Source: Sphaerodactylus townsendi
Lineage: Eukaryota
Assembly (NCBI RefSeq): GCF_021028975.2
Contig: NC_059435.1
Location: forward strand, 32,488,001 to 32,552,000
Reading direction: 5' to 3'
Length of the DNA stretch: 64,000 bases
This document shows positions 15,861 to 32,534 of the stretch, in pieces. Position numbers and translations under genes: made by a program. The first letter of the stretch is position 1. Each line of letters begins with the position of its first letter. The notes under the pieces are model-generated. The model ran no database searches. It saw nothing but the letters and a program-made list of their open reading frames with translations, and was not told the DNA's origin.

Positions 15861-16384
15861 AGAGTAAATTTATTGTAACTACTTGCTAAGAAAGTTCATC
15901 TTCGATATACTAACATGATTATCTTTGTTTTATACAGACAGACTGAAAGGACAGATTTGAACAATAACAGTCTCACTGAACAAGCTGCCTCAATATACAA
16001 CAAAATTTTGTAGGACAGATTATTGCTGATGTCTAACAGACTGCTCATGTAATTCCATTTCTGCTTTGCAACAGGGTGAAGCTACACTTGGGGACTGCGT
16101 CATTTCTATGTTTTGCACAGGTCAGCTTTTTTTTTCCTCTAAGAGTTTTGCTGAAATTACTTTTCTACCAGAGGATACAATACCAAGACCTCATATTTAT
16201 TCACATGAAACAAACACAATAATATCACAACTAGTACGAGGGAACAGAACTTCTGAATGGTATCCCAGCCTAACCCAATGATGAAATATAACCAAGCTTG
16301 ATTAAAATAGACTTCTATTGCAGTAAGAAGTTAAGGAAAGACCAGTTGAAGTCAGCATATCTCTTTTACAATAAAATGGATAAG

Positions 16385-16585
16385 TGGTCCAGGCTAGCCC
16401 TATCTCATCAGATCTGGGAAGCTAAGGAAGCTTGGCCCTGGTAAGTATCAGCAAAGGAGACCACTAAGGAATTCTAGGGTTGCTCTGCAGAGGAAAGCAG
16501 TGGCAAACCACCTCTATAAGTCTCTTGCCTTGAAAACCCTATGGGGTCGCCATAAGTCAGCTGTTAGTTGACAATACTTTACACA
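16385..16585 (+). mobile_element. 5S rRNA-derived SINE (5S-Sauria-like)
   Basis: Head ccctatctcatcagatctgggaagctaag...ccctggtaagta...ggagacc resembles the 5S rRNA internal region, followed by the shared tail. Confidence 0.8.
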
Positions 16586-17499
16586 CACAAACAAACAAAA
16601 ATAAACAATCACACACTTAAGCTGTTGGGGGAACAACCCCATTGTGATCCAGACATAGTGTGGATGGGAAAGAGCCATCAAGAAGTTGATATCCAGTACA
16701 CCCTCTGTGCATGGGGATGATTTATTTTGGTACTTAAGAATAGAAATCAGGACTGACATACACTCTGGGACACCAAATGGAAGGTACCACAAACAGTTTC
16801 TGTTCAAGTCTACAGGCTGTTCTACCAAGGATATGGGCAAGAATTCTACAGATTAGACTTTTTTTACTCAGTTTTTATTCCCCTCCTTTAAAAACTATCT
16901 AGCCTGATGAAAGCACTGGAGAACTTAAAAGTTTGTACAGGATTTCATTTTATTGGGGGGGCGGGGGGAGGTTCCTTAATATGCATGACTTGGATATTCC
17001 TATACTAAGGAAACAATTCTGAACAAACTCAGAAATAAGTACCATTTTCTCCTAGGGGTTCATTCCCAGAAAACTGTTCTTATGTCTGCAGCCTAAGTGT
17101 CTTACTTTATACATGGTAAGAAGCTTTCTATTACAGAACCAAAAGTCAATGTTGCCATGCAATACTATGTGTCATACTGAAAGATATGCCTCTCTTACTT
17201 TTTAAGACCTGGAGATCTCAAACTTACTTCACAGTAGCAAAGTCACTCACTGTGAATGCAGCAGGAGTTAATAGAAAGAGAAGAAAGCCAGCACTTAAGA
17301 TGGTGAAAAATGTTTGTGAAGGAAAATACTTCATTCACACTATGATTTTCCAACATGAATCTCTCCTTTGGAGGGGGAATGTGTTAGGACTCACCTCTTG
17401 CCCACTTAGAAAAGGTAAGGCAGAAACATCTCTAAGGGAGAGGAAAATGTATTCACAAATCATAAATGTTTCAAAATGACTGAGCATCCAGTGTATGTG

Positions 17500-17646
17500 G
17501 AAAGTGCAATCAAGTTACAGCAGACTTATGGCAATTTTGTAGGATTTTCAAGGCAAGAGACTAACAGAAGTGGTTTGCCATTGCCTTCATTTGCATAGCA
17601 ACCCCAGAATTTTTTGGTGATCTCGCATCCAAATACTAACCAGACC
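17500..17646 (-). mobile_element. 5S-derived SINE fragment
   Basis: Reverse complement of the same head and tail (gacttatggc...ttttcaaggcaagaga...catccaaatactaacca). Confidence 0.75.
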
Positions 17647-18013
17647 ACCTACTCTAAACAAAATGCAATTCCTTTTGGAAGGCAGACAATAAAATTAGCC
17701 TTTCTATGGGCACCCTCAGGAAACTTGATCTTTCCCTCACTTTGGAACATGCCTGCCTCCTTCTGTCCAAGTGAGGCAACTATTCCTTCAGTGGTGACAG
17801 TAGTCCGGAAAGGGGAAAGCTATGTTTCCCATACAGTATAAAAAACTAAGAACAAGGAAAGAAGGATGGTATGAGGAAAACTTCAATAACTAGATGCTAC
17901 AAATAATAGGATGTAAAAATAAAATGCAAAACTATTACCCATCCATGACAACTTTTTTGGTCATATTTGGTTACAATATGCCTTAAAAAACAAGGAAAGT
18001 ATATGTTACTTAC

Positions 18014-18060
18014 CCATTCTGTATTGCAGCTGTGGGATCATACGTCAAGGCCATGCCAGC
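18014..18060 (-). CDS. RBMS3: RBMS3 internal coding exon, 47 nt
   Basis: Acceptor cccccaactgtgtgtag after a T-rich tract, donor GG|gtaagt. Encodes AGMALTYDPTAAIQN(G), in frame with both flanking exons. Not shown in the ORF track. Confidence 0.96.
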
Positions 18061-19140
18061 CTACACACAGTTGGGGGGAAAAAAGATTATTACTCTTTTG
18101 GTATTGTGAGCATGCACACCAGGCCAAGACAAAGGAGGGGTTGTTAGCGAATCCCAAATGCCTTTTTGTATAATAGTCTCTTAGTGCTTCTTCGAACCTC
18201 AAATAAATTGGCATTCATACAAGTGGGTATTCCCTTCCACAAGCAGGACAAAATATTCTTCCATTTATTTCGAAGGATTTTTTTGCTCCTCCTCCTAATT
18301 TCATCAGCATTAAAATTACTAAATTTGTAGTCAGTGAGTTGGATCCAAAGGCTCCATTGCATTATTGGTGGAAGGATGTTTTTTCTAATTCAAGGACCTT
18401 TGCTACACTAGAGCCAGAATGCTGCATTAGTGTAAGGCAGCTTGCTCAAAAGGAAGGCTCCACAATTAGAGAATTAGGATCTTCGCGGATCTAACCCCAG
18501 AAGTAGGCTTTAGTTCATATGGATTATAGGCTACAAAAATTATCATGATTTCATTCTGCTGGTTCCGGAAACTGGGTAATTTATTCTAGACATGATTGGC
18601 ATTGCAAACTACAAACCTTTTAAACCAAGCAAAATGTAAGCAGGATCACTCTTTATATTTTTGAGCCAAATGGCTTGATTTTATCATTGCTGAATCATCA
18701 CATTATGGTGGGATACAAGGACTGCTGATTTTGGGCAAAGTTACATACTGTGCCATTAACAAATCATCCTAGGATCTTGTTTGGAAAATGCAGCGCTAAT
18801 TTGTGCTGTACTGCCAGTAACTATAACTTTTGCCACGTATGGTGTTGCAGAAAAGAGATCTACTATATTATTTTCTTTTTTCAAATGCTATACTCCAAAT
18901 GGATGGCTTAGCCAGTGATCTAGCTATTGAAATGTCCTAAGGGATCATATTATAAAAGAAGCAAAGTTTAGAGTCCAATTCTTTGTGCCATTCTGGTGCC
19001 AAGCTATCATGACAATTGTATGGCTTTCTCTTCTGTTCATTCCATTGTATGGCTTTCTCTTCTGATTGACAGTGCAGCAAACCAAAGCAATCTGACAAAC
19101 GCTGTTTCATCAAAAGCATGTAAACTTTGCATACACTTAT

Positions 19141-19179
19141 CTCTTTCTGAGCCTTGGAGAGTGAATGCAAAACCCCTTC
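19141..19179 (-). other. RBMS3: Candidate 39-nt in-frame RBMS3 cassette exon (EGVLHSLSKAQKE) with non-canonical ATAAGT donor
   Basis: Acceptor tgtttttgttttag, 13 stop-free codons in phase 0-0 between the 107-nt and 47-nt exons, followed by GAG|ataagt, which matches the GTAAGT consensus except at +1. Confidence 0.55.
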
Positions 19180-19961
19180 CTAAAACAAAAACACTCATGA
19201 ACTTAAGTGCAGGGTCAACTCTTGAAGGCCTGTTGACAAGATGCATGATGAAGACTGGGAAAGCTGGCAAATGGGACAATCTACGAACCAGAAGTCCAAG
19301 CAGGAAGTGAAATGCCAGATGAGAAGCAACCAGTAGGAATCCGAAAATGAGGGTGAGTGGTTAAGATCAAAAAAAATGAAACAGAACAAATGAAACAGAA
19401 AAAGACAAAGCCCTTGACAACAAATAGTCCAAATGAGAAGCTCTTTGAAGAATAGGAACAGGGAACCCACCAGCCAAATAAGACTTAGTTTCAGAATTCA
19501 TTTAATAAAATAAGCTCCGCACAGCGGGAAAGTTAGCTTTCCTTTGATAATTTATTGCAGTTCACACTGAACAAAATATACCACAGTATTAAAAAAACAA
19601 GTTTACAAAAATTAGGCAGTAACTCAAACCTTTTGATGTGAGCTGCTTTGAGCACACAGATGTACAATTAAAAAGCCGAACGTTCTTCCTAGCAGAACAG
19701 CCTGAAAGACACCGTACTCAAACAGTGAGGAGCTAGAAAGCCAAGATCTTCAGGTTCACATCAGGACTACATGTGCAGGTGCAAGTTAAGATCTGAATAA
19801 AATGGCACAGAGGTAGGATTCCAGGCAATGAATTATTTAATGTTAAAGAAAGTAAAAAGAAAAGAAAACTACGTCCCAGGACATTGCATGGAGACAACAG
19901 TGGCAAAAATTTACCCTGCAATTGGATCTGAATATCCAAGACCTCAATATGGAATCTTTCT

Positions 19962-20150
19962 TTGTAACTGAATAAACAGGAATCCAGTGGCCCCTTAAAC
20001 ACTAGTAAAAGGTATTCTAGCATGAACTTTCATGAGTCAGAGCTCCAATGTATCTGGATCATGAGCTCTGACTCACAAAAGCTAATGCTGGGATAAATTT
20101 TGCTAGTCTTTCAGGTGCCACTGGACTCCTATTATATTTTTTTGCTACAG
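19962..20150. mobile_element. Penelope-like terminal remnant forming an imperfect inverted repeat
   Basis: Arms ccagtggcccc...tgagtcagagctc and gagctctgactca...ggtgccactgg. Resembles the squamate Penelope terminus. Confidence 0.6.
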
Positions 20151-20764
20151 ACTAAAGTCTAACTAGACTTTTCACAGTTGTTGTTATTCAAACTCTTATT
20201 ATTTTTCTGTTTTGACTAATACCAAGAGAAACAACAGCATGACCAAGGCTATATATCCTCTATAGTATACATTCTCCTAGAGTTAAAACAGAAGGCCAGT
20301 AAAACTGATTCTTTTTACTGGAATTTATAAACCACCACCTGTGCTTCATCCAGTGAATCTCCTTATGAGTCTGTACATAGATAGATACTATAGCTGTTGC
20401 CCTAAAGCCACTTATGAGGAAGCAAATTCCACTAAAACGAATAAAATTCAAAGCATCAGATCTGAAAGGTACTGGAAATTTCTTCTATGCCAAGGAATTT
20501 TCAATATGCAGCAGACTGTACTACAATTTTTAATAGCTCTGTGTTCTTCTACTCAGCTGTGTTCTCCCTCTCGCTCTCATGCAGACATTTGTGATTTATT
20601 CCACAACTGGGTTAAGGGTAAACAATTAAAATAATTAGACTACAAAGCCATGACTGTACTGTAGGTGTAATAAAAACCCTTGATGTTTCATTGATGCTAT
20701 GAATATGCATTGTCAAAAATTACAGGGCTAAAAGATGGCAGCTCTCAAAAATACCTACATCTGA

Positions 20765-20955
20765 AGGCTACCAGCTCCAAGATTACAAATTCCCAAAGAT
20801 TTGGGGGTGGATCCTGGGGAGAGTGCAGTGAGGGGAGGAGGGACCTCATTGTGGTATAATACCATAGAGTCCAACCTTCAAAGCACCCTTCTCCAAGGGA
20901 ACAGATCACTGTAATCTGGGTATCAGTTTTGATTCTAGGAGATCTTCAGGGTCCA
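20765..20955. mobile_element. hAT/Tip100-like MITE (ggttgccaac family), decayed
   Basis: Body tttgggggtgga.cctgggga...gggaggagggacctca...tataat.ccatagagtcca. A related copy is at 47508-47708. Confidence 0.6.
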
Positions 20956-21489
20956 TGTATGTGTTGGGGAGAGGTTTTTTTTTTTTTTTGGTAAATTTAC
21001 TACATGCTGACAGTCAATCTCATCACTAACTTTAACTCTCCAAAAAGAATTCATTTTAAAAAGCGGTTGAACAAAAATCTTTTCCAGCAGTTTTTCCCAA
21101 TCCATGAGTGTGACATGTTGATATACTTAACCTGTAAATTAGTTAAGTAAATTATATCCAGAAGCCAATAATACAAACAGCAGAATCAGTTCATGCATAA
21201 AGGGCTCCATATACATAAGGAAGTCCCCAAGTGCGAGGAAAAGGTGACCTTTTTAAAAAGAAAAAATCCTCAAAGTGTCCTGATGAGGACAAATTATGAT
21301 CCAGGGCACATTTTGGAAACAGTTGATAGGAAACAGTGGAACAGCATAAATTATCCTGCCCACACCCTGAGAACGACTAAATGTCTGAAGGGGACCACCA
21401 AACGGTTTGTCTGAAGGAGACCACCAAACGGTTTCCTGTTGCAGACTGAGGCCACAGTTATTATTGTGAGAAATCATAGAACCACCAGT

Positions 21490-22703
21490 GTAGAACAGGA
21501 CATGAATCCAGAATTGGGCCATCTGTCTGTCAGCTGATGAACACCCCTCCTTCCAGCCCACCTGGTGGGGGAGCAACTGTGGGATGGCAAGTTCAGGGGT
21601 CCCACATGGGTGTCATTCGATTCATGTTTACCTTGCCACCTTAGGGACAGAGTTGGATGCCAGCCCCCAAGCTAGCTGTAATGTAGACAGCTCTACCCTC
21701 AAGACCCCTTACAGGAGTGCTCAAGCCCAGGGAGGTAGGCATACAGGCTCAGCCACCACAAAACTGGATCCAGTCTAATGCCCAAACTGCCACAAGAGAA
21801 GGGCAACAGTCTCTCTCCTGCCAGCCCTTCTATGACTTCATCCAAGAAAGCAGGCCATCACAGATGCTATGAAGCCACACATCCTGGGTCCCATTCAGAA
21901 AGATGCATGCCATCCTCCCAAAATAGGGCCACCAGCATGAAGGAAATATCCAGGTGCTGAATGATGGAACCCACACCTGCCTCCACTACCCACCCAGCTG
22001 GTATGATCAATATCAGCCTCACAACACCAACTCTGTATGGCAAAATTATCCTGTGGCAGCTGCAACATTTCAATACATTGAACCAAGAGAGCCGTGGGCT
22101 AGGCAGGAGGAAACAATGAAACACAAATTCCCTTCCAGACTTTAGGTCCATTCATACAAGTGAAGTAATTTTCTCCCAGCTGGATGATCAGAGCCCCTGG
22201 TTTCTCCCACATGACAACCAGCCATGTGACAGTGGTTGCAAGAGCCTCTCAGAGCATTCCTCTGAGCCCAATCTGGATGAAGTTGCATAGATCCTAGCAC
22301 TGTGAGGGATGCTGTGGCCCCACTATACATGCTCTATACTGGCCTCCCAGAGCTAAAATAGAGTTAGTGAGTGGTTGAGGAGTAGAATGAATGTATACCT
22401 TAAAGGTAGAAGACCTTCAGTGCCCAATAGTCCAAAAGAAAGTTGCATCCATGACTGCACCTATGCAAAAAAAGTGCACCGCAGAATTCTTCAGCTGGAA
22501 TTCCAGAATGGCCAGGTACACCTGCAACATGTTAGTAAACTGAAACCCTGTGAGGAAAGTCCCATCCACATAAGTGAGGAGGGAGCAGACAATCCTTAAT
22601 CTTTTGGTCAGATAATTTGTGGTTGCCTGGGTTGGGCAAGGATACTTGTGTGAGTGTGTGCTTGCATGCGTGCGTGCGTGTGTGCCTGGGCTGGGCAGTG
22701 ATG

Positions 22704-22784
<81 letters not shown>

Positions 22785-24330
22785 GCTCACACCAACCTCC
22801 TGCCTCTTCATTCAGTCTTGGACTGCTGTACTACCATGTAGAGTTCCAATCCCTCAATCGTATTGTACCATTATGAAGCCTTATTGTCTGACCCAAGCAA
22901 TCACAGCTTGAAGCTGAGACCAACTCACTGCTGTGGAAAGTCCACAGAATGAAGGCAGCCTGGAAGAGAGCAGCCTTGAACCTGGACCAATAGAAGGCAG
23001 GCAACTGCTGCAAGAGTCCCTTGATAATTACAACAGGGATGGTCCTGCAAGCATCAGGTGACTGAGAAGGAACTCCTTTTTCAAACCTCAATGGCCTACC
23101 TGGAATTAAAAGACCTGCAGAGGTCAGTACAGCCAAGGGCCCTGCTGTAGAATGTAATGGTGGACAAATTAACCCCCATGGTCTTGGGGGCCATGCCTCT
23201 CTCCCTTGGGTGTGCCAAGTAACAGAGCCCCATTGCCTCCAAGGTTGAAAAGAAACTGCCTCCCCCTTCATCTTTTGAGAATGTGAGGAAGGCCAGTCTG
23301 TCCTGGAAGTAGAAAACCAGAGTAGACGGTGCAATGGAGCTGAGGATTCCCTGTATGATCGCCTGTTGCCACGTGCCCACAGCTCCTTTGGTAAGGGGTC
23401 TGGGGAATGGTTTCTGGAACCTCTATCTCTAAAAATGAGATATGGTGTCTATGATGCCATCTGTGCCAAGCTGATGCAATATACCAAGCTGAAAAAGAGA
23501 TGCTTACAGAAAGGCAGACCAGAATAAATTTGTGCACCAGATGCATGAGCATGAGACCTGTCAATTAATCATCCTAGCCACAGCCTGGTTGTCACACCAG
23601 AAGATGATCCACCTATCCCTGAAGTGGTCCTAGTCATCCTACCATATAGTAACAATGACCAGGATATGGAAGAACTTGAGGAAGGTGAGGTCCCTAAGTA
23701 AGCCATTGCCAGTACAGTGAGTGGGCCACCCACTTGAGTGCAGTTGTGCCTTATGAGGTAAAGCCTCATGTCTGCCTATCATCTGAGTGTACCTGAAAGA
23801 AACTCCCCAGTTCTCTCTGAAAGTTGGGATAGGTGGCCTGAACCATACCCATGTACACAGTGTATCCTGCCAACCAGTTATCAAAAGAGCACTCATGCTC
23901 CCTTTTTGGTCCTTACCTCATTAAATCATGGGCAGCACCTTCCATCCTTGGTCTTAAGGAAGTAAAATATATCCACACAATATTGAGGACCCATTGATGT
24001 ACCTTATGAGCAAGATGGATACCTGTGGGAGAGGTCCATGTGACTGCCATTGCCAGATGTACAGGGAGAGCAAAGCTGACTGTGCAACCAGTCTGGCTTG
24101 TGGCTACCAAAGTCCTGGAGAAGTACACCAGACTGAAGCGTAGGCTATCATGCCTGTGCTTGGAAGCCTGGTCAACCCCTCAGCAGGCCTTGTGTATGGT
24201 TGCTCAAGCTGGCCCAAGTCTGGTCACCCCAACCTGCCCAGTGTGAAGAAGAAATCCTTTCTCTGTGCTTGCTCCCCAGCTCTGCAGCTGCAAAAGTGGT
24301 CCCCAGTGAATTCTACAGGCTGTTGTTCTC
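21490..24330 (-). mobile_element. Decayed Ngaro/DIRS tyrosine-recombinase retrotransposon (possible gag remnant, RNase H, YR, SGNH-hydrolase-like ORF)
   Basis: Minus strand: RDLTFLKFFHILVIVTIW..WIIFWCDNQAVARMIN and LVHKFILVCL (DIRS RNase H). SSIAPST..CYLAHPRERGMAPKT..LSTITFYS and PDACRTI..AALFQAAF..SELV (YR N-part). DGTFLTGFQF..CIGA..RSSTFKVYI (YR catalytic end). LIIQLGENY and IIQHLDISF..LFWEDGMHLSEW (SGNH-like). Confidence 0.85.
22705..22782. repeat. Compound (CT)18(GT)21 microsatellite inside the YR region
   Basis: Read directly from the sequence. Confidence 0.97.
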
Positions 24331-31976: not shown

Positions 31977-32083
31977 CTCTCCTTCTCTCGGCCACGGCCT
32001 CCCATTCTGTGTGTACTTGCTTTGATTTTGCCGTTTCTTCTGCCCTCCATCAGCAAATTTGCACAGCAAAGGCTCCGTTGGGG
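31977..32083 (-). CDS. RBMS3: RBMS3 internal coding exon, 107 nt (end of RRM2 and linker)
   Basis: Acceptor gttcattgtattcacag, donor GAG|gtgagt. Translates (A)[35 protein letters not shown], the RBMS-family motif after RRM2. Phase 1 in, phase 0 out. Confidence 0.97.
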
Positions 32084-32534
32084 CTGTGAATACAATGAAC
32101 ACAGTCTGCATTAGCAACCTTCCACAGATAGTAATTACAGCAGCATGTGTAATGTTTCTGTAATGTTCATCTTTTGAAGTAAAATCCTGCCTCCTGCAGA
32201 TTTTTTGGGGTATGTATGTGTGCACAATTTAACCCTGACAGTTGTTCTTGTTATAGGTTTTTTAAAAAATAAATACTTCCAGATCTTTGAAAAATGTAAT
32301 CAACAATGAAAAAACAATCAAATAATTCAAATGTAGAAAAATTAAGAGGGAAGTTTATAATATGATGAACAGTGGAATAAATCTTTTCCTTAATACTAGA
32401 ATTCAAGGTCAGTTACTTTGCAATGAAATTGTTTCACAGTAGACTCAGGAAAGACAAAAAGAAAACCTTCACACAATGTACAAACTAACTTGGGAAATAC
32501 ACAACCACAGGATGTATGATGGCCATTAGTTTTT

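What the first reader, a model, noticed from the sequence alone, without database searches (positions are those of the whole stretch)
19135..19195. Frame-preserving 39-nt RBMS3 cassette-like exon with an ATAAGT donor (GT to AT at +1)
Seen: on the minus strand, tgtttttgttttag|GAA GGG GTT TTG CAT TCA CTC TCC AAG GCT CAG AAA GAG|ataagt. This is a good acceptor, 13 open codons in phase 0-0 that would slot between ...REGE and AGMALT..., and a donor that fits AG|GTAAGT at every position except +1. It is not a U12 AT-AC site (ATATCC). Inference, four options: (a) an ancestral alternative exon inactivated in this lineage by one G>A change; (b) a donor restored by A-to-I editing (AU to IU, read as GU), making inclusion editing-dependent; (c) use of the in-frame GT 6 nt further on (AGT|gtatgc), giving a 45-nt exon; (d) a polymorphism or assembly error. 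I recall mammalian RBMS3 isoforms differing by about 13 aa, but I have not verified this.
Basis: partly seen in the sequence, partly recalled or inferred. Interest (0 to 1): 0.75.

Follow-up and report, generated by a model that had tools for sequence, protein, structure and literature searches.

The report
Likely silent exon look-alike, gecko RBMS3
A 39-base stretch inside an intron of a gecko's RBMS3 gene looks like a small optional exon with one wrong letter at its splice signal, but it is likely unused intron DNA: the wrong letter is shared by related animals, a second animal of the same species lacks the other splice signal, and nothing shows RNA editing repairing it.

Summary
The sequence is as described. 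The A at donor +1 is genomic: contigs of a second conspecific and two related organisms keep it, so it is not an assembly error. That conspecific has the acceptor AG changed to TG. None of 457 retrieved proteins has the peptide. Exon shapes this good, with at most one mismatch in GT, occur about 0.9 times per 64 kb of sense strand. Editing is poorly supported: disfavoured 5'-G context, a 12-bp helix only, fold z -1.25. The downstream GT is weak. The gecko segment matches it in length and phase (chance about 0.01-0.03) but not in sequence. Verdict: unused pseudo-exon, likely chance (0.6), possibly a dead relic of that cassette (0.27); editing-dependent use about 0.04. No RNA data were available, and the +1 base in the most distant relative was not visible. 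The scan had not noted this elsewhere.

The parts
19180..19207 (-). Acceptor-like region: possible branch-point-like motif at 19207-19203, T-rich tract, AG at 19181-19180. The AG reads TG in a second individual of the same organism.
   Evidence: (run X3, T>A at 19181 on the + strand, contig depth 32)
19141..19179 (-). 39-nt stop-free phase-0 segment (pseudo-exon body)
   Evidence: one listed, synonymous change at 19150 in organisms C and E; peptide in 0 of 457 proteins
19135..19140 (-). Donor look-alike ATAAGT (A in place of G at +1)
   Evidence: base unchanged in runs X3, X4 and, by counts of change kinds, in X6, X7
19129..19134 (-). In-frame GT 6 nt further on (would give a 45-nt exon); weak donor
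   Evidence: -1.74 bits, 150 of 732 intron GTs score as well
19130..19247 (-). Predicted irregular hairpin enclosing the segment; its outer 12-bp helix pairs 19247-19235 with 19141-19130 and puts the +1 A opposite 19236
   Evidence: z -1.25 for the hand-picked 128 nt, z +1.40 for 281 nt
31977..32084 (-). Upstream RBMS3 coding exon, donor GTGAGT, phase 0 at its 3' end
18014..18060 (-). Downstream RBMS3 coding exon (47 nt), canonical AG and GTAAGT

Best explanation
The segment is likely an unused pseudo-exon: intron DNA of the gecko RBMS3 gene that happens to carry a good acceptor, 13 open codons and a donor one base from consensus, and that the spliceosome likely skips because the intron would have to start with A. 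Shown: the sequence; that the A is genomic and shared by relatives; that the acceptor differs in a second conspecific; that such shapes occur about once per window. Inferred: that the upstream exon (31977) joins directly to the downstream exon (18060) as in other lizards, that the segment is not spliced in, and that it arose by chance rather than from the amniote cassette.
For: Base rate: 13 exon shapes of this quality with at most one mismatch in GT in 928 kb, 0.9 per 64 kb of one strand. No sense-strand excess of A+1 donors: 9 vs 8. Acceptor AG is TG in run X3, same organism label, another sample; it is the only substitution of that run in 901 nt. 0 of 457 retrieved proteins carry the peptide; 376 join the flanking exons directly, including 19 of 23 lepidosaur proteins picked by source name. 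No protein hit for the read-through frame (weak evidence). No excess conservation in organism C: 1 listed change against 0.78 expected. No homology to the amniote 13-residue cassette: BLOSUM -1 to -14, codon-profile rank 2488 of 13877. [quoted passage not shown]
Against: A 39-nt exon shape in this particular 13.9-kb intron, where a 39-nt amniote cassette sits, is expected only 0.012-0.03 times by chance. With A at +1 specifically it is unique in 928 kb. The single listed change in relatives is synonymous, and organism E has no deletion in 19126-19237. The +1 A lies in a predicted 12-bp helix, true of only 12 of 150 random intron A's. No RNA was examined. The acceptor variant comes from one contig, so zygosity is unknown.
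Confidence: 0.6

Rival explanations
1. Dead relic of the amniote 39-nt RBMS3 cassette. The exon would have stayed in use while its peptide drifted, then lost its donor by G>A before organisms A, B and C split; it is now silent and decaying, as the variable acceptor suggests.
For: A 13-residue insert at this junction occurs in 30 placental-mammal proteins and 1 bird protein of 457. The mammal and bird versions look homologous (BLOSUM up to 27, shuffle P 0.00025). The gecko segment has the same length, phase and last residue; chance 0.012-0.03. No better candidate exists in the intron (best codon-profile score 9.3, null median 10.4).
Against: It shares 1 of 13 residues with the bird version, whereas mammal and bird share up to 6 of 13 (P 0.004 at equal rates). 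Gapped codon-profile score is matched by 56 of 555 intron tiles. No lepidosaur protein among 23 has any insert here. The bird insert rests on one computed gene model. No mammal or bird intron DNA could be obtained.
Confidence: 0.27
2. Low-level real use without editing, either by the in-frame GT 6 nt on (45-nt exon) or by direct use of the AT donor through strong U1/U6 pairing at the other positions.
For: The frame stays open through the +6 GT. Unedited AT-AG introns exist in human, e.g. ACTR10 (PMC4176328, passages read). Donor positions other than +1 score 7.8 bits.
Against: The +6 GT scores -1.74 bits and 150 of 732 GTs in the intron score as well. The acceptor is lost in X3. No protein carries either peptide.
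Confidence: 0.08
3. Editing-dependent exon: ADAR would convert the +1 A to inosine within the hairpin that encloses the segment, creating a working donor.
For: Precedents: GPR81 (PMC526178, passages read) and three AT-AG sites with A>G mismatches (PMC4176328, passages and Table 2 read). The A is predicted paired in a 12-bp helix with probability 0.75-0.97. The A is kept in three organisms.
Against: The 5' neighbour is G, which ADARs disfavour (PMC9638939, abstract read; triplet GAU). The hairpin is not unusually stable: 21 of 200 shuffles fold as well for the hand-picked 128 nt, 184 of 200 for 281 nt. No listed inverted repeat within 16000-23000 covers the site (25 of 76 pairs shown). The best distant duplex is matched or beaten by 43 of 60 control A's. 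The acceptor is lost in a conspecific. A+1 donors are not enriched on the sense strand.
Confidence: 0.04
4. Assembly error or private variant at 19140; the true base is G and this is an ordinary exon.
For: The best-holding run X1 gave no cover at this place, so the likely source sample was not checked directly. An earlier scan note reports sequence errors elsewhere in this assembly (e1-9516502, untested).
Against: Contigs of X3 and X4 span the site with no other letter. All T>C changes of X6 and X7 (5 of 5 each) are listed and none is at 19140.
Confidence: 0.01

Closest known systems
Intronic pseudoexons (e.g. ATM and CFTR cases, PMC1935003, one passage read)
   Same: Exon-sized intron segment with splice-site look-alikes, one base from activation, no evidence of inclusion.
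   Different: Frame-preserving and sits in an intron where other amniotes have a cassette of equal length; no activating allele seen.
13-residue RBMS3 cassette of placental mammals and one bird (stored proteins P0065, P0062, P0329, P0261)
   Same: Same gene, same intron, same length, phase 0-0, same last residue.
   Different: No detectable peptide or codon-level similarity; donor has A at +1; position within the intron could not be compared.
A-to-I-created donors: GPR81 (PMC526178); C14orf37, NUP210, CRYZL1 (PMC4176328 Table 2)
   Same: Genomic AT where GT is needed, in an otherwise good donor.
   Different: Those have measured editing (57% for GPR81, in paired Alu repeats). Here no RNA evidence, only a 12-bp predicted helix and a 5'-G neighbour.
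Unedited AT-AG intron of primate ACTR10 (PMC4176328, passages read)
   Same: AT donor that would derive from an ancestral GT.
   Different: ACTR10 has spliced reads and GT in other mammals; neither is shown here.

Membership tests
Functional cassette exon | Junction reads or transcripts including it | not testable with these tools
   No RNA holder listed; this blank is no evidence either way.
Functional cassette exon | Canonical donor dinucleotide in the genome | tested here: not met
   AT in the window and in runs X3, X4, X6, X7.
Functional cassette exon | Splice sites fixed in the species | tested here: not met
   Acceptor AG reads TG in X3; one contig, zygosity unknown.
Functional cassette exon | Conservation above intron background | tested here: inconclusive
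   1 listed change vs 0.78 expected in organism C; low power; most rows for organism E not displayed.
Functional cassette exon | Peptide present in annotated isoforms | tested here: not met
   0 of 457 proteins; only 1 isoform from the matching assembly (P0157) was among them.
Orthologue of the amniote 39-nt RBMS3 cassette | Same intron, length and phase | tested here: met
Orthologue of the amniote 39-nt RBMS3 cassette | Peptide or codon-level sequence homology | tested here: not met
   BLOSUM -1 to -14; rank 2488 of 13877
Orthologue of the amniote 39-nt RBMS3 cassette | Aligned position and flanks in intron DNA | not testable with these tools
   No mammal or bird RBMS3 intron DNA was obtained; the genome tool holds no relatives.
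A-to-I editing-created donor | A>G mismatches at the site in RNA | not testable with these tools
   No RNA run listed.
A-to-I editing-created donor | Long, stable duplex around the A | tested here: inconclusive
   12-bp helix, 12 of 150 random A's match it; z -1.25 and +1.40; no distant partner above controls.
A-to-I editing-created donor | Favourable 5' neighbour | tested here: not met
   5' G; disfavoured per PMC9638939 abstract.
U12 AT-AC/AT-AN intron | U12 donor consensus after the AT (recalled: ATATCC) | tested here: not met
   Sequence is ATAAGT.
Pseudoexon | Exon-like signals at a frequency expected by chance | tested here: met
   0.9 per 64 kb of one strand.
Pseudoexon | Not included in normal mRNA | not testable with these tools
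   Inferred only.

The most novel reading that the evidence does not exclude
The segment is the gecko descendant of an amniote-wide 39-nt RBMS3 cassette whose donor mutated from G to A and is now switched on by A-to-I editing inside a 12-bp hairpin that encloses the exon, with an acceptor-loss allele segregating in the species: an old, non-repeat exon turned editing-dependent in a reptile.
Probability: 0.03. Interest if true: 0.65.

Novelty: not a real feature. Interest (0 to 1): 0.14.

Why it matters
As an unused look-alike it matters little. If it is a relic, it would record recent loss in geckos of a small RBMS3 cassette kept in mammals and at least one bird, a modest case of exon death. 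If editing revived it, it would be a rare editing-created donor outside repeat pairs and outside mammals. The by-product of most use is that a 13-residue RBMS3 cassette appears homologous between mammals and a bird; four searches (listings only) showed no title or abstract opening about it.

Tried and rejected
Sequencing-run search: no RNA holder listed. Run X8 covered only pieces beside the segment, two with loose ends suggesting similar sequence elsewhere, but three searches of the own genome gave one match each, so a repeat origin was neither shown nor excluded. For run X9 (organism E, 118 substitutions) 98 table rows were hidden, including all 12 of its T>C changes, so its base at 19140 is unknown. 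Protein searches with the 80-codon read-through frame found nothing (only lengths 141-2000). A metagenome pattern scan found nothing. A metagenome scan with P0065 returned 33 loci, none an amniote RBMS3 intron by its listed identity and range. A search with P0157 did not return the other isoforms of the matching assembly. A profile search built on junction peptides was not done, so transcripts of other lizards with an insert here remain unsearched by that route. U12 splicing was rejected from the sequence. A remnant of the amniote cassette elsewhere in the intron was sought and not found. Supplements of PMC4176328 (full list of non-canonical sites) were not read; its main text has no mention of RBMS3.

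Full report
Observation. The minus strand has a T-rich tract, AG at 19181-19180, 39 nt of stop-free phase-0 codons (19179-19141) and ATAAGT at 19140-19135. The flanking exons 32084-31977 and 18060-18014 match lizard RBMS3 proteins at 100%, and ten RBMS3 exons map in order across the window and neighbouring stretches. The genome is 1.81 Gb, and contig C11 has the same length as the contig listed for protein P0157, which its source names as Sphaerodactylus. I therefore treat the animal as a dwarf gecko. The description is confirmed.

Is the A real? Nine runs hold the region, none on record as RNA; I laid eight of the nine. X3 (same organism label, other sample) and X4 (organism B) span the site in one contig each with no other letter at 19140. 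For X6 and X7 (organism C, 24 changes in about 1200 nt) the table was cut, but all five T>C changes of each run are listed and none is at 19140. For X7 two changes (one A>G, one C>T) are unlisted and could lie anywhere; X6 has three unlisted. X1 and X5 gave no cover, X8 only neighbouring pieces. X9 (organism E, 118 substitutions and 73 gap bases) spans the site, but its 12 T>C changes were all among the hidden rows, so its +1 base is unknown. An assembly error is thus very unlikely, and the A predates the split of A, B and C.

Is the segment under constraint? X3 differs from the window at one position of 901, and that position is the A of the acceptor, giving TG. This is one contig at depth 32, zygosity unknown, but it shows an acceptor-less allele in the species. 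A lone change hitting one of the four splice dinucleotide bases has a chance of 0.004, so it is an odd coincidence on any reading; it argues against a needed exon. In organism C the 39 nt carry one listed change, synonymous, against 0.78 expected; the 128-nt hairpin region carries one against 2.6 expected (P 0.28). This shows no excess conservation, with low power.

Is the shape more than chance? I scanned 464 kb of RBMS3 region on both strands, using pyrimidine counts for acceptors and recalled human donor frequencies. In-frame, stop-free shapes of 21-150 nt with a donor as good as this and at most one mismatch in GT number 13, or 0.9 per 64 kb of one strand. With A at +1 only this one passes at that threshold (3 at a lower one). 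AG|ATAAGT occurs 9 times on the sense and 8 on the antisense strand. A reader looking for near-perfect exons in a 64-kb window would expect about one.

Proteins. Among 457 proteins retrieved, 376 join the two flanking exons directly and none holds the gecko peptide. Of 23 lepidosaur proteins picked by source name, 19 join directly, 3 skip further exons and 1 does not cover the junction. Only one isoform from the matching assembly was retrieved, so its annotation was not fully checked. Searches with the read-through frame found nothing.

The amniote cassette. The mammal and bird inserts look homologous (BLOSUM 12-27; shuffle P 0.00025 for the best pair). The gecko segment has the same length, phase and final residue, and a 39-nt shape this good in this 13.9-kb intron is expected only 0.012-0.03 times. 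Against homology, it scores -1 to -14 against six insert variants, shares 1 of 13 residues with the bird version (P 0.004 if the rate were as between mammal and bird), and ranks 2488 of 13877 positions on a codon profile; with gaps 56 of 555 tiles score as well. No other place in the intron resembles the cassette (best 9.3, null median 10.4). The two improbabilities are of similar size, so the relic reading stays a serious rival. My weighing (judgement, not computed) is about 2 to 1 for chance, because an exon dead long enough to lose all similarity should also have lost its splice signals, and one alive until recently might appear in other lizards' isoforms.

Editing. Donors created by A-to-I editing exist: GPR81 (PMC526178, passages) and three AT-AG sites (PMC4176328, passages and Table 2), which also reports unedited AT-AG use. 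Here the A sits in a predicted 12-bp helix closing an irregular hairpin around the segment. 12 of 150 random intron A's have a helix this long, and the fold is not unusually stable (z -1.25 for a hand-picked 128 nt, +1.40 for 281 nt). No distant partner beats controls (43 of 60 as strong), and none of the 25 longest of 76 inverted repeats covers the site. The 5' neighbour is G, which ADARs disfavour (PMC9638939, abstract). Editing is not excluded but has little support.

Downstream GT. The in-frame GT scores -1.74 bits against 7.81 for the A-site ignoring +1/+2, and 150 of 732 GTs in the intron score as well.

Mechanism. Most likely the spliceosome joins 31977 to 18060 and ignores this segment, because U1/U6 recognition and first-step chemistry need G at +1 (established knowledge) and the nearby GT is weak. 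The segment then drifts, as the acceptor variant suggests. Non-use is inferred, not shown, since no RNA was available.

Literature and earlier notes. Searches on RBMS3 with splicing, a 13-residue isoform, editing or gecko (listings only) showed nothing on this segment. PMC1935003 (one passage) states that pseudoexons may outnumber real exons tenfold. The scan's own notes hold nothing near this place and only loose analogues.

Verdict. Sequence confirmed; not shown to be an exon. Chance pseudo-exon 0.60, dead relic 0.27, low-level unedited use 0.08, editing-dependent 0.04, assembly error 0.01. Interest 0.14.

Noticed in passing
RBMS3 intron 31976-18061; stored proteins P0065, P0062, P0063, P0325, P0329, P0261: A 13-residue cassette in this intron appears homologous between placental mammals (30 proteins) and a curlew (1 protein); this gecko has no recognisable copy.
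   Followed up: partly
window 19015-19064: 29-nt-period tandem duplication that varies among relatives: 29 bases left out in organism B, 17 in organism C, several short gaps in E.
   Followed up: no
window 19975-20133 and 16438-16589 / 17492-17643: Inverted repeats: 71-nt arms at 80% with a 17-nt loop about 800 nt upstream of the segment, and 152-nt arms at 76% in the next intron; better predicted ADAR substrates than the donor site itself.
   Followed up: no
window 19179-18937, minus strand: The frame stays open for 80 codons past the acceptor; no protein homolog found.
   Followed up: yes
stored proteins P0157, P0060, P0422, P0420, P0061: Two gecko models skip three exons after 31977; three other models (monitor lizard, goshawk, sloth) appear to skip only the 47-nt exon and continue in a shifted frame.
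   Followed up: no
stored proteins P0064, P0201-P0203, P0253, P0012: Other lineage-limited inserts at the same junction: 31 residues in Chinese alligator, and 14- and 20-residue inserts in birds that look like donor extensions.
   Followed up: no
window 19049-19133 and 19200-19237: Run X8 has contigs that match these stretches at about 90% and run on into unlike sequence, hinting at old repeat fragments; own-genome searches gave single matches.
   Followed up: partly
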